Below are positions 13,106 through 14,257 of a stretch of 59,849 nt of DNA, piece by piece; the stretch's first letter is position 1, and each line of letters starts with the position of its first letter. The position numbers and the translations under genes were made by a program. The DNA is from a virus. A model generated the notes under the pieces. The model saw only the letters and a list, made by a program, of their open reading frames with translations. It did not search any database and was not told where the DNA came from. The stretch is from IMG/VR virus record IMGVR_UViG_3300045988_094266; one strand, given 5' to 3'.

Positions 13106-13505
13106 TTTCTTCCGCCTCCATTGGCCTAAATCCAATACACGTCAAAGTCCCTTCCGGGCCTTCGCGTTCTAACTCTGTTCTACAAGCATCATAGATAAGC
13201 CAATAATCCTTATTCTCTTCCCATCCTAATTCTTCTGCTATCTTAACAGCCTTTAACAAATCATTCTTATTCTTCGCTCTACAAACTACTTTGGTCTCCG
13301 CTTCCGCTATCCAATTATGGAATAAGTCTCTATCGAGGCTTATTCCTATATGATACATAAGACCGTCTCTTTCTTTAACAACTTCTTTACTTCCCCAATA
13401 TAACTTTTCCAAAAGAAAAGCAATAGAAGCATGGGAAACTTGTGCGGCAAGTTTCCCTGGAGACATATTTAAGTCTCGCCTCGCAATAATTAATTGCTTG
13501 AACAT
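13068..13505 (-). CDS. Peptidyl-tRNA hydrolase, PTH2 family
   Basis: KQLIIARRDLNMSPGKLAAQVSHASIA matches the PTH2 signature (xxVRxDLxMxxGKxAAQxxHA). Confidence 0.7.
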   Translation of the reverse strand: MFKQLIIARRDLNMSPGKLAAQVSHASIAFLLEKLYWGSKEVVKERDGLMYHIGISLDRDLFHNWIAEAETKVVCRAKNKNDLLKAVKIAEELGWEENKDYWLIYDACRTELEREGPEGTLTCIGFRPMEAEEIDKIGKKYQLYN

Positions 13506-14257
13506 TTTTCCAAAACCTCCAAGAAAATTCTAAAATTGCGGGAATTGCGGTTTGGAATCGCAAAATAGATATTTGGAATATTATAATTGCGGGCTGCGTT
13601 TACGAGCAAGGTGGCGACCGTTGATGGATCTTGCATAAAAACACCACAGCCCCAGGCTCCCGCGATTAAATTTTCCACTCCCTTAACCTCGGCAATTCGA
13701 TACATAAAATTAATTCTCTCTTCCATTATCCTATTGTTTAGAGAAAGAGGAACTTGCTGATAAGTATGTGCTGTTCTATAATTAGGAGAAGCACAAGTAA
13801 TTACATCAGCTAATTTTCTACTATCGTCTTTTTCAAAGACTACATCAGGAGTATAGATAGCTCTATCAAGATATAGGGCTCGATTCAGTCTCTGTCTATT
13901 CCATGCGTAATAAGTATCATCAAAAGCAAGAAGAATAGGATAAAGGTTGCTTTCGTGACACAATGCCTCTTCTTGTGCAGAGCTACCTCCAAGGAAATAA
14001 CCACCTGGATGTTTATAGCTTGCATAATTTAAGATCGCAGTCTTGCTCCGATCGGTTAAACCGAATAGGCAGGATACACTATCTTGGTCTTTAAGATAAA
14101 AGGTATTATGGTGGGTTTCTCGCGGTTTTTGCGGAAAAGGAAGATTGGGGCCAAAAATTTCAGAGTTTATAATTGCGCGATCTGTATCTTCCCTGAGTCT
14201 CACTTTAATGTCTGCGTAATGCGATTGCGCGTGTTGTTTGAGCTCTTCTCGTTTCAT
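13490..14257 (-). CDS. PARG-like macrodomain protein (DUF2263/TIGR02452-like)
   Basis: HPGGYFLGGSSAQEEALCHESNLY resembles the bacterial PARG signature GGG-X6-8-QEE. The start is set at the internal ATG, which has a GAAAGGAAA RBS. Confidence 0.55.
   Translation of the reverse strand: MKREELKQHAQSHYADIKVRLREDTDRAIINSEIFGPNLPFPQKPRETHHNTFYLKDQDSVSCLFGLTDRSKTAILNYASYKHPGGYFLGGSSAQEEALCHESNLYPILLAFDDTYYAWNRQRLNRALYLDRAIYTPDVVFEKDDSRKLADVITCASPNYRTAHTYQQVPLSLNNRIMEERINFMYRIAEVKGVENLIAGAWGCGVFMQDPSTVATLLVNAARNYNIPNIYFAIPNRNSRNFRIFLEVLEKCSSN

What the first reader, a model, noticed from the sequence alone, without database searches (positions are those of the whole stretch)
13490..14257. PARG-like macrodomain (DUF2263-type) gene in the auxiliary block
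The segment PGGYFLGGSSAQEEALC matches the poly(ADP-ribose) glycohydrolase signature. A phage-encoded ADP-ribose hydrolase could reverse host ADP-ribosylation-based defences or degrade NAD-derived immune signals. It is adjacent to PTH2 and a lipoprotein.
Basis: partly seen in the sequence, partly recalled or inferred. Interest (0 to 1): 0.55.

Follow-up and report, generated by a model that had tools for sequence, protein, structure and literature searches.

The report
Phage-encoded bacterial-type PARG hydrolase gene
A gut phage that reads the TAG stop codon as an amino acid carries, in its early gene block, an apparently active ADP-ribose-removing enzyme of a known bacterial family; it may protect the cell's RNA from ADP-ribose tagging by host defence toxins, but this has not been tested.

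Summary
Window 13490..14257 (minus strand) encodes a 255-aa protein that passes the curated cut-offs of PF10021 (microbial-type PARG, formerly DUF2263) and TIGR02452. A high-confidence model (pLDDT 93.5) matches the T. curvata and D. radiodurans PARG structures at TM 0.78-0.84. The catalytic Q-E-E and the diphosphate loop are present; the motif is GGY-X7-QEE rather than GGG, and that position varies across the clade. The Arg/Asp "ribose cap" of exo-only PARGs is replaced by a near-invariant Asn.

The window is an SPbeta-like siphovirus, about 145 kb, whose late genes are TAG-recoded. The PARG gene and its early block are TAG-free, so the host can translate them immediately. Its stop overlaps the start of a PTH2 peptidyl-tRNA hydrolase gene.

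Published biochemistry shows that bacterial-type PARGs cleave poly(ADP-ribose), 2'-O-ADP-ribosyl RNA and ADP-ribosylated phosphate ends, but not base-linked or Glu/Ser-linked mono-ADP-ribose. The most likely role is therefore removal of ADP-ribose from RNA.

This is a new member of a known kind: the enzymology is predictable, the physiological substrate is unknown, and interest is moderate.

The parts
13490..14257 (-). Gene for a 255-aa bacterial-type PARG (PF10021 / TIGR02452) macrodomain hydrolase
   Evidence: ORF and translation; Pfam and NCBIfam above curated cut-offs; AlphaFold2 model with pLDDT 93.5; Foldseek top hits TcPARG and DrPARG.
13967..14008 (-). Catalytic loop P-G-G-Y-F-L-G-G-S-S-A-Q-E-E (residues 84-97); Q95-E96-E97 is the PARG catalytic triad position
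   Evidence: Coordinates verified. Aligns to NPGGGFLGGAQAQEE of DrPARG. QEE present in 154/154 aligned homologues; the third G is M/G/K/Y-variable.
13637..13660 (-). Diphosphate-binding loop G-A-W-G-C-G-V-F (residues 200-207)
   Evidence: Verified; G-A-x-G-C-G-V-F is near-invariant in 153 aligned homologues; aligns to GAWGCGVF of DrPARG.
13535..13537 (-). Asn241, at the 'ribose-cap' position (TcPARG Arg268 / DrPARG Thr267)
   Evidence: Profile alignment to wild-type and T267K chains; role of the position from PMC6445106; Asn in 146/149 homologues, while the Asp260-equivalent residue 236 is variable.
14264..14270 (-). Shine-Dalgarno-like AAAGGAA upstream of the ATG
   Evidence: Sequence read directly.
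13068..13505 (-). PTH2 peptidyl-tRNA hydrolase gene (145 aa). Its ATG lies 16 nt before the PARG stop codon and GGAGG sits about 10 nt upstream, so the two genes are co-transcribed and probably translationally coupled
   Evidence: PF01981 1.4e-22 and phrog_1866; junction sequence.
14482..14835 (-). Conserved upstream ORF of unknown function (117 aa from the ATG that overlaps the FolD stop; Cys-rich C-terminus)
   Evidence: Conserved in relatives (cluster 24; called as 115 aa in L006). No Pfam, PHROG or PADLOC hit.
14835..15620 (-). FolD (methylene-THF dehydrogenase/cyclohydrolase), complete only if 4 in-frame TAGs are read as sense
12863..13135 (-). Small lipoprotein-like ORF downstream of PTH2 (TTG start, lipobox-like LTAC)
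   Evidence: no family hit.
12715..12741 (-). Terminator-like hairpin (11-bp stem plus T-run), the probable end of the transcription unit that contains PARG
   Evidence: sequence. Consensus match only.
15965..15993 (-). Promoter-like site (TTGATT-17-TATAAT with TG) in the divergent region, the probable start of the minus-strand unit
   Evidence: consensus match only. A weaker site at 14304..14332 lies just upstream of PARG.

Best explanation
The gene encodes a catalytically competent bacterial-type poly(ADP-ribose) glycohydrolase. This is a macrodomain enzyme that binds a terminal ADP-ribose and uses the Q-E-E loop (Glu96/Glu97) to hydrolyse the bond at C1'' of the distal ribose.

The gene lies in the phage's TAG-free, standard-code block, in one probable transcription unit with FolD, a small unknown ORF and PTH2, and its stop overlaps the PTH2 start. 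The unmodified host translation system can therefore make the protein as soon as the DNA enters the cell.

My preferred substrate is ADP-ribose attached to RNA, either on ribose 2'-OH (the same 1''-2' ribose-ribose bond as in PAR) or on terminal phosphates. Such marks would be placed on tRNA, rRNA or mRNA by host ADP-ribosyltransferase toxins or defence systems. Stripping them would keep translation running for the phage, alongside PTH2, which recycles tRNA.

- **Shown here:** family membership, fold, intact active site, absence of the Arg/Asp ribose cap, TAG-free coding, gene overlap with PTH2, and conservation of the gene block.
- **Taken from the literature:** the substrate range of bacterial-type PARGs.
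- **Inferred:** that RNA-ADPr is the in vivo substrate, that expression is early, and that the purpose is counter-defence.
For: **Family and fold:**

**Active site:** QEE in 154/154 homologues and the G-A-x-G-C-G-V-F loop near-invariant.

**Cap position:** Asn in 146/149 homologues with a variable Asp-partner position. In PMC6445106 a small residue here goes with an open 2'-OH site.

**Biochemistry of homologues** (PMC11833690):
- SCO0909 and DRB0099 were the only bacterial hydrolases in the tested panel that reverse RhsP2 2'-OH RNA ADP-ribosylation.
- They also clear ADP-ribosylated 5'-phosphate ends.
- They protect E. coli from RhsP2.
- DrPARG sits in an operon of ligase, PARG and HD-phosphatase/kinase.

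**Context here:**
- The PARG stop overlaps the PTH2 start by 16 nt, with GGAGG upstream.
- PTH2 lies within about 1 kb of PARG in about 7 PARG lineages (40-99% identity) in three gene orders.
- A kinase / metallophosphatase / T4-Rnl1 fusion lies 61 nt upstream of PARG in L010.
- HD-like, calcineurin-like and Pol-beta nucleotidyltransferase neighbours recur.

**Timing:** TAG is 52% of Gln-type codons in late genes but 0 of 255 codons in PARG (P about 0.001) and 1 of 2,352 codons in the early block.
Against: - No activity was measured, and the protein is only about 25-29% identical to the assayed enzymes.
- No RNA-targeting ADP-ribosyltransferase is known for the presumed Oscillospiraceae/Clostridia host, and none was found in the window.
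- The PTH2 link is lineage-specific. Deposited relatives (Enterococcus EF1/VRE9, C. difficile phiCD211) have PTH2 without PARG, while the Lak phages and phage G have PARG without a detectable PTH2.
- The count of RNA-repair-type neighbours (55/160 loci) has no background control. It includes generic HD and metallophosphatase domains and many near-duplicate loci.
- The two genes upstream in the same putative operon (orf106 and FolD) do contain TAG codons, so 'early' expression is not clear-cut.
- Some relatives carry frameshifted or truncated alleles.
Confidence: 0.42

Rival explanations
1. It is a classical PAR glycohydrolase. It degrades protein-linked poly- or oligo-ADP-ribose made by a host or phage PARP-like enzyme during infection.
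For: TcPARG and DrPARG, the closest solved structures, hydrolyse PAR in vitro (PMC8120803; PMC6445106). The cap-less Asn241 would even allow endo-cleavage, as in DrPARG.
Against: No PARP or ART domain was found in the window's Pfam-detectable genes or next to PARG in 160 loci. Endogenous PAR is documented only in a few bacteria. The rest of the roughly 145-kb genome was not available to check.
Confidence: 0.15
2. It degrades soluble NAD-derived immune signals. An example is Thoeris 2'cADPR, whose riboses are joined by the same kind of 1''-2' O-glycosidic bond as PAR. The signal would be linearised to ADP-ribose, giving an enzymatic anti-Thoeris function.
For: cADPR isomers are cyclised by a ribose-ribose O-glycosidic bond (abstract of bioRxiv 10.1101/2022.05.07.491051). 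PARG is fused to a YAcAr-type SLOG domain in both orientations in other phage-like contigs (P0082 and P0123). PMC9503650 predicts that phage Macro and SLOG domains target soluble ADPr derivatives.
Against: No experiment in the library links PARG to cADPR isomers. The 2026 preprint on enzymatic degradation of these signals identifies RyR-domain proteins and does not mention macrodomains. SLOG is absent from all 160 surveyed PARG loci. A compact cyclic substrate may not fit a site built for a terminal ADP-ribose on a chain (inference).
Confidence: 0.15
3. It is a dispensable accessory gene (a moron or decaying passenger) picked up from Clostridia, with little role in infection.
For: - Frameshifted or truncated alleles occur in close relatives: the P0010 family ends in ...TAHKFLFL, L002 has a 13-nt deletion, and L005 is truncated.
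- The gene is absent from the nearest deposited phages.
- GC content is 39% against 33% for the late genes, though it equals the rest of the early block.
Against: Every catalytic position is conserved in all aligned homologues. The gene and its synteny are retained down to 65% identity. 276 IMG/VR contigs carry relatives. Some 'truncations' look like assembly indel errors, since there are multiple small deletions in the same sequences.
Confidence: 0.1
4. It is an antidote or regulator for an ADP-ribosyltransferase encoded elsewhere in the same phage, limiting or timing the phage's own ADP-ribosylation of host targets.
For: Phage ART plus hydrolase pairings are described in PMC9503650. Only 60 kb of a genome of about 145 kb was visible.
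Against: No ART in the window or adjacent to PARG in any of the 160 loci.
Confidence: 0.06
5. It reverses DarT-type DNA ADP-ribosylation.
For: It is an ADP-ribose-binding macrodomain, and phages do carry DarG-like and NADAR counter-defences (PMC13309987 and PMC11825919).
Against: Those enzymes belong to other clades. Thymidine-ADPr is cleaved by DarG/TARG1-type macrodomains and guanine-ADPr by NADAR, whereas PARG-type enzymes were assigned to 2'-OH and phosphate linkages (PMC11833690). Generic macrodomains match the model only at E about 1e-5, against 1e-18 for PARGs.
Confidence: 0.03

Closest known systems
Deinococcus radiodurans PARG (DRB0099; PDB 5ZDA-5ZDG)
   Same: - Same Pfam and TIGR family.
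- Best sequence match among solved structures (profile E = 3.7e-38).
- TM about 0.79 over about 250 residues.
- Same QEE triad and GAWGCGVF loop.
- No Arg at the ribose-cap position (Thr267 in DrPARG, Asn241 here).
- Sits beside nucleic-acid end-processing genes, as some phage homologues do.
   Different: - Only 25-29% identity.
- GGY instead of GGG.
- The Asp260 partner is Asn here.
- Encoded by a phage and overlapping PTH2 rather than lying in a ligase, PARG, HD/PNK operon.
- Activity untested.
Thermomonospora curvata PARG (PDB 3SIG/3SIH), the founding bacterial-type PARG
   Same: Top Foldseek hit (E = 4.5e-18, TM 0.82-0.84). Macrodomain core with an N-terminal helical extension; the catalytic loop aligns.
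   Different: TcPARG has the Arg268-Asp261 ribose cap that makes it an obligate exo-glycohydrolase (PMC6445106). The phage protein has Asn/Asn at those positions.
[quoted passage not shown]
   Same: Same DUF2263 family according to the paper (PMC11833690). It is the functional precedent for the proposed mechanism: protection from an RNA-targeting ART.
   Different: It is a cellular immunity-type enzyme, not a phage one.
PARG-family genes already present in viruses (Bacillus phage G gp114, Lak megaphages, giant-virus 'microbial-type PARG' proteins)
   Same: Homologous at 27-40% identity and structurally similar in BFVD. Phage G gp114 also sits in an auxiliary block with tRNAs, another macrodomain and folate/nucleotide enzymes.
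   Different: Those are jumbo or giant viruses. This one is a TAG-recoded SPbeta-like siphovirus of about 145 kb with a PTH2-overlapping arrangement. None of these viral genes has a tested function, and PHROGs v4 has no family that matches this protein.
Phage DarG-like macrodomains and NADAR (AdfA) counter-defence enzymes
   Same: Phage-encoded ADP-ribose hydrolases used against host ADP-ribosylation (PMC13309987 and PMC11825919). The proposed logic is analogous.
   Different: Different clade or fold and a different bond: base-linked N-glycosidic ADPr on DNA, against O-linked ADPr on ribose or phosphate for PARGs.

Membership tests
Bacterial-type PARG (Pfam PF10021 PARG_cat_microb / DUF2263; NCBIfam TIGR02452) | Scores above the curated family thresholds | tested here: met
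   PF10021: 92.8 bits against 23.5. TIGR02452: 167.7 bits against 50, covering residues 17-245.
Bacterial-type PARG | Macrodomain fold with an N-terminal helical extension, closest to TcPARG and DrPARG | tested here: met
   AlphaFold2 pLDDT 93.5, pTM 0.91. Foldseek against PDB: 3SIG/3SIH/5ZD* at E 1e-13 to 1e-18 and TM 0.75-0.84; all other macrodomains at E of about 5e-6 or weaker.
Bacterial-type PARG | Catalytic Q-E-E of the PARG signature | tested here: met
   Q95-E96-E97 align with QEE of DrPARG and TcPARG; present in 154/154 aligned homologues.
Bacterial-type PARG | Strict GGG of the GGG-X6-8-QEE signature | tested here: not met
   The sequence is G85-G86-Y87-X7-QEE. The third position is M (60), G (51), K (24) and others in 154 relatives: mostly M/K in viral copies and G in cellular ones. 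This is a clade-level variation of the loop and not a loss of the catalytic residues.
Bacterial-type PARG | Diphosphate-binding loop G-A-x-G-C-G-V-F | tested here: met
   GAWGCGVF at residues 200-207, identical to DrPARG and near-invariant across the family.
Bacterial-type PARG | Hydrolysis of PAR, 2'-O-ADPr-RNA or phosphate-ADPr | not testable with these tools
   Activity is known for TcPARG, DrPARG and SCO0909 only (PMC6445106, PMC11833690).
Exo-only bacterial PARG subclass (TcPARG-like) | Arg268-Asp261 'ribose cap' blocking the adenosine 2'-OH | tested here: not met
   Asn241 is at the Arg268/Thr267 position and Asn236 at the Asp position. Asn is present in 146/149 relatives.
Canonical (eukaryote-type) PARG, Pfam PF05028 | Scores above the family threshold | tested here: not met
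   16.9 bits against a cut-off of 26.3. Structural matches to Tetrahymena, mouse and human PARG reach only TM about 0.5.
DarG/TARG1-type or MacroD-type macrodomain hydrolases | Closest sequence or structure relatives belong to these clades | tested here: not met
   No Pfam Macro (PF01661) hit at E <= 0.01 for this protein. Generic macrodomains match at E of about 1e-5 or weaker, against 1e-18 for PARGs.
Known anti-phage defence system components (PADLOC-DB) | Match to any defence-system protein model | tested here: not met
   No PADLOC family at E <= 0.01 for PARG, PTH2 or the upstream ORF.

The most novel reading that the evidence does not exclude
The overlapping PARG-PTH2 gene pair is a phage 'translation-apparatus repair' module aimed at a still unknown host immune ADP-ribosyltransferase in gut Clostridia. 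In this reading the host enzyme tags tRNA or rRNA on ribose 2'-OH or on end phosphates. PARG removes the ADP-ribose and PTH2 frees the stalled or blocked tRNA. That would make phage PARGs a new class of enzymatic counter-defence and would predict a new RNA-ADP-ribosylating defence system. A less likely variant is that the enzyme linearises Thoeris 2'cADPR.
Probability: 0.22. Interest if true: 0.7.

Novelty: new member of a known kind. Interest (0 to 1): 0.4.

Why it matters
Bacterial-type PARGs were long enzymes without a clear physiological role. In 2025 they were shown to be the only tested hydrolases that undo 2'-OH RNA ADP-ribosylation, and to protect cells from an RNA-targeting toxin.

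Hundreds of gut phage contigs carry intact copies (276 in IMG/VR). Here the copy lies in a block readable under the standard code and overlaps a tRNA-recycling gene. This suggests that ADP-ribosylation of RNA, or of another ribose-linked target, is a real pressure on phages of gut Clostridia. It also provides a concrete 255-aa protein with which to test that idea.

If the idea is confirmed, it would add an enzymatic counter-defence class and point to an undiscovered host defence. If it is not, the gene remains a routine annotation of a known domain.

Tried and rejected
1. **Boundary artefact from the alternative code.** Rejected: there are no in-frame TAGs, the stop is TAA, and the next upstream stops are TAG at 14353 and TAA at 14362.
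2. **PHROGs and PADLOC annotation of the PARG protein.** No hit in either library.
3. **ART or PARP partner in the window.** Pfam scans of 17 early-block proteins found none.
4. **A universal conserved neighbour of PARG.** Unbiased clustering of ORFs within 3.5 kb in 160 loci found none. The largest non-PARG clusters were antisense shadow ORFs; the real recurrent neighbours (HD-like, AAA, metallophosphatase, nucleotidyltransferase, PTH2) each occur in 25 loci or fewer.
5. **PTH2 as an obligate partner.** Rejected at family level.
6. **SLOG as a frequent partner.** Rejected: 0 of 160 loci, only rare fusions.
7. **First motif count by regular expression.** It missed 74 of 160 sequences and was replaced by an HMM alignment.
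8. **Literature searches** for phage PARG, TIGR02452/PF10021 and PARG plus cADPR. No functional study of a phage-encoded bacterial-type PARG was found. The 'PF10021' text hits were Plasmodium gene IDs.
9. **Truncated homologues as evidence of TAG codons inside PARG.** Rejected: they result from indels or frameshifts, and some are probably assembly errors.
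Full report
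**1. Observation**

The minus strand carries an ORF at exactly 13490..14257: ATG start, TAA stop, 255 aa. A longer version starting at TTG 14320 is unlikely. Homologues start at the same column as the ATG and an AAGGA Shine-Dalgarno-like sequence precedes it. The quoted peptide PGGYFLGGSSAQEE is residues 84-97, nt 13967..14008.

The similarity is far beyond chance:
- PF10021 (microbial-type PARG catalytic domain, the former DUF2263): 92.8 bits against a cut-off of 23.5.
- TIGR02452: 167.7 bits against a cut-off of 50, covering residues 17-245.
- phmmer against PDB sequences finds only the D. radiodurans and T. curvata PARGs, at E = 2.5e-24 and 3.5e-21.

**2. Structure and active site**

An AlphaFold2 model built on a 48-sequence alignment is confident (pLDDT 93.5, pTM 0.91). 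Foldseek against the PDB puts TcPARG (3SIG/3SIH/3SIJ, TM 0.81-0.84, E about 5e-18) and DrPARG (5ZDA-5ZDG, TM 0.75-0.79) first. Canonical PARGs and other macrodomains follow only at E of about 5e-6 or weaker.

I aligned 160 homologues from viral and cellular contigs to a family HMM:
- The Q-E-E triad is present in all 154 sequences that cover the column.
- The diphosphate loop G-A-x-G-C-G-V-F is essentially invariant.
- The third glycine of the textbook GGG-X6-8-QEE signature (PMC8120803) is Tyr here. It varies across the clade (M 60, G 51, K 24), being mostly M/K in viral copies and G in cellular ones.

At the 'ribose-cap' position the phage protein has Asn241, which is conserved in 146 of 149 relatives, and the Asp-partner position varies. 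In TcPARG the Arg268-Asp261 pair blocks the adenosine 2'-OH and enforces exo-cleavage, whereas DrPARG has Thr267 and shows endo-activity (PMC6445106). So the enzyme looks catalytically intact and resembles DrPARG more than TcPARG around the 2'-OH site.

**3. What the window is**

Under the standard code only 20% of the 16-54 kb plus-strand block is covered by long ORFs. With TAG read as sense, coverage reaches about 100%, with ORFs of up to 2,913 aa containing 98 TAGs. The window contains no tRNA gene.

- The portal, a virion structural protein and other structural genes match phage families.
- In a 93%-identical relative, the neighbouring genes hit the Pfam families YonB, YonD_N and YonG_N of Bacillus phage SPbeta.
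- The portal's nearest deposited relatives are gut phage Phass-1 and siphoviruses of about 140 kb from Enterococcus, Lactococcus and Bacillus.
- Close relatives of the PARG gene lie on contigs of 145-149 kb, one of them binned with an Oscillospiraceae MAG.

The element is therefore a TAG-recoded, SPbeta-like siphovirus of gut Bacillota, about 145 kb in size.

**4. Position and expression logic**

The gene lies in the minus-strand block (about 1.4-16 kb) that diverges from the structural block at about 16 kb. Promoter-like sites face both ways there.

The consensus scans suggest this transcription unit:
- promoter-like site at 15965..15993;
- orf106;
- FolD;
- orf117;
- PARG;
- PTH2;
- lipoprotein-like ORF;
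- small Zn-ribbon ORF;
- terminator-like hairpin at 12715..12741.

These are pattern matches only.

TAG supplies 52% of Gln-type codons in late genes (268 TAG in 10,308 codons). It occurs 0 times in PARG (P about 0.001) and once in 2,352 codons of the early block. The gene can therefore be translated by the unmodified host machinery. The two promoter-proximal genes, orf106 and FolD, do carry TAGs (6 and 4), so the timing argument is not clean.

The PARG stop codon lies 16 nt inside the PTH2 gene, and a GGAGG sits about 10 nt before the PTH2 ATG. This indicates co-transcription and probable translational coupling.

**5. Relatives and context elsewhere**

The family is large: 6,065 representatives at 50% identity with E <= 1e-3. 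At least 276 IMG/VR contigs and more than 530 species genomes, mainly Clostridia, carry relatives.

Among deposited phages only the Lak megaphages, Bacillus phage G (gp114) and a few uncultured phages have it. PHROGs v4 has no matching family. BFVD shows the domain annotated in phage G-like phages and in many giant viruses.

The order FolD, small ORF, PARG, PTH2 is kept down to 65% identity. PTH2 lies within about 1 kb of PARG in about seven lineages (40-99% identity) in three different orders.

However, PTH2 occurs without PARG in the deposited relatives (Enterococcus EF1/VRE9, C. difficile phiCD211). PARG occurs without a detectable PTH2 in the Lak phages and phage G. The pairing is therefore specific to this lineage.

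Other findings on context:
- In one 108-kb contig, PARG directly follows a 722-aa kinase / metallophosphatase / T4-RNA-ligase fusion, with RlaP-type nucleotidyltransferase, RNase H and SIR2 genes nearby.
- Unbiased clustering of neighbours in 160 loci found no universal partner and no ART. Recurrent neighbours are HD-like, calcineurin-like, Pol-beta nucleotidyltransferase and AAA proteins.
- 55 of 160 loci have at least one RNA-end-healing or tRNA-rescue-type neighbour. These categories are loose, many loci are redundant, and I had no background control.
- PARG is fused to a YAcAr SLOG domain in both orientations in two clusters and is tandemly duplicated in another. SLOG is absent from the 160 loci.
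- Some close relatives carry indels or frameshifts in PARG. Part of this looks like assembly error.

**6. Mechanism**

The chemistry of the family is established: hydrolysis at C1'' of a bound terminal ADP-ribose by the QEE loop (PMC8120803, PMC6445106).

- DrPARG does not remove Glu- or Ser-linked mono-ADPr.
- PMC11833690 showed that bacterial-type PARGs (SCO0909 and DRB0099) and human PARG were the only enzymes in their panels that reverse RhsP2-made 2'-OH RNA ADP-ribosylation. That bond is identical to the PAR ribose-ribose bond.
- The same enzymes clear ADP-ribosylated 5'-phosphate ends and protect E. coli from RhsP2.
- Guanosine-ADPr needs NADAR, and thymidine-ADPr needs TARG1/DarG-type macrodomains.
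- DrPARG sits in an operon of ligase, PARG and HD/PNK.

Taking this together with the PTH2 overlap and the RNA-repair-type neighbours, I commit to removal of RNA-linked ADP-ribose as the most likely role. The target would be tRNA, rRNA or mRNA, and the effect would be to keep translation running. My confidence is about 0.42.

That the protein is an active bacterial-type PARG I hold at about 0.9. The role is inference; nothing here measures activity.

**7. Rivals**

- Classical protein-PAR hydrolysis (0.15).
- Degradation of soluble signals such as 2'cADPR (0.15). This is supported by the bond chemistry, the SLOG fusions and the predictions in PMC9503650. No experiment supports it, and the 2026 preprint on enzymatic cADPR degradation names RyR-domain proteins without mentioning macrodomains.
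- A dispensable passenger gene (0.10).
- An antidote to a phage ART encoded outside the window (0.06).
- DarT reversal (0.03).

**8. Comparison with the known, and novelty**

This is a member of the bacterial-type PARG family. All defining features that I could test are met except the strict third Gly. It is not a canonical PARG (PF05028 is below threshold). It is not a DarG-, TARG1- or MacroD-type macrodomain, and it does not belong to the TcPARG-like capped subclass.

Automatic pipelines would already label it 'TIGR02452 family protein'. Three things are new:
- The setting: a stop-codon-recoded SPbeta-like gut phage, a TAG-free block and an overlap with PTH2.
- The clade-specific GG[M/K/Y] loop and the near-invariant cap-position Asn.
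- The testable idea that phage PARGs counter RNA ADP-ribosylation.

**Verdict:** new member of a known kind; interest 0.40.

Noticed in passing
window 15985-54389 (+), against 1400-14928 (-): The late and structural genes are TAG-recoded: long-ORF coverage rises from 0.20 to about 1.0 when TAG is read as sense, and TAG makes up 52% of Gln-type codons. The minus-strand early block has 1 TAG in 2,352 codons. There is no tRNA in the window, so the suppressor tRNA must lie elsewhere in the genome.
   Followed up: yes
window 55530-59391 (-): A diversity-generating retroelement:
- reverse transcriptase at 55530..56747 (phrog_1423, 1e-83);
- a 164-aa accessory ORF at 57187..57681;
- template repeat at 57054..57156;
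- variable repeat at 57777..57879, at the 3' end of a 542-aa repeat-rich target ORF (57763..59391).

In the aligned repeat core, the mismatches fall at adenines of the template repeat.
   Followed up: yes
window 14835-15620 (-) and 15607-15927 (-): FolD (261 aa) and the preceding orf106 contain 4 and 6 in-frame TAGs, although they head the same strand block whose downstream genes, including PARG, have none. A mixed-code operon would give staged translation from one transcript.
   Followed up: partly
window 13068-13505 (-): An archaeo-eukaryotic-type PTH2 peptidyl-tRNA hydrolase with an insertion of about 30 aa relative to the Pfam model. PTH2 is also present in deposited relatives (Enterococcus EF1/VRE9/H1, C. 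difficile phiCD211) and in jumbo phages. In a stop-codon-recoded phage it could clear peptidyl-tRNA from ribosomes stalled at TAG; this was not tested.
   Followed up: partly
window 32415-41156 (+): A single 2,913-aa ORF with 98 in-frame TAGs, followed by ORFs of 1,305 aa and 943 aa. They are presumably the tape measure and tail or host-recognition proteins. None was annotated here.
   Followed up: no
window 7830-8291 (-) and 9516-9749 (-): An AbrB/MazE-SpoVT-type DNA-binding protein (PF04014, 9.9e-12, plus a SpoVT_C-like C-terminus). A second small ORF carries the same SGRIxIP motif, recognised by eye only. A MazE_antitoxin-type gene recurs at the same relative position in related phages L006 and L009.
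   Followed up: partly
window 5758-6549 (-): A 263-aa protein with only a weak DEDDh exonuclease match (PADLOC PDLC01247, 1.2e-4) and no Pfam hit.
   Followed up: no
L002 about 6700; L006 10001-10741; L005 5980-6504: Close relatives carry small deletions in PARG at short direct repeats. L002 has a 13-nt frameshifting deletion near the 3' end. L006 has in-frame deletions of 12 nt and 9 nt. L005 has a truncated gene and has lost the PTH2 start. Several database proteins (P0010, P0013, P0015, P0020) share a frameshift ending in ...TAHKFLFL. It is unclear which of these are real alleles and which are assembly errors.
   Followed up: partly
P0082 (L007 1801-2970), P0123, P0121: PARG is fused to a YAcAr-type SLOG domain at the N-terminus (P0082) or the C-terminus (P0123), and P0121 has two PARG domains in tandem. 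L007 is a phage-like contig carrying NrdD, HNH and dCTP deaminase genes.
   Followed up: partly
L010 4772-6940: A 722-aa fusion of AAA_33 kinase, metallophosphatase and T4 RNA ligase 1 lies 61 nt upstream of a PARG homologue. RlaP nucleotidyltransferase, RNase H, SIR2 and two Band_7 genes are nearby. It looks like an RNA-repair island.
   Followed up: partly
window 12863-13135 (-); cluster 21 in 9 viral loci (e.g. L047 7636-7950): Small lipoprotein-like ORFs (signal peptide plus lipobox Cys) recur close to PARG in unrelated phage lineages. They may be superinfection-exclusion lipoproteins. No family match was found.
   Followed up: no
L172 (Bacillus phage G 60154-72864): The phage G PARG homologue gp114 lies among tRNA genes and small unannotated ORFs. 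A second macrodomain (gp122, 'Appr-1-p processing') lies 3.4 kb downstream, with thymidylate synthase and DHFR just beyond. This parallels the FolD neighbour in the window.
   Followed up: no
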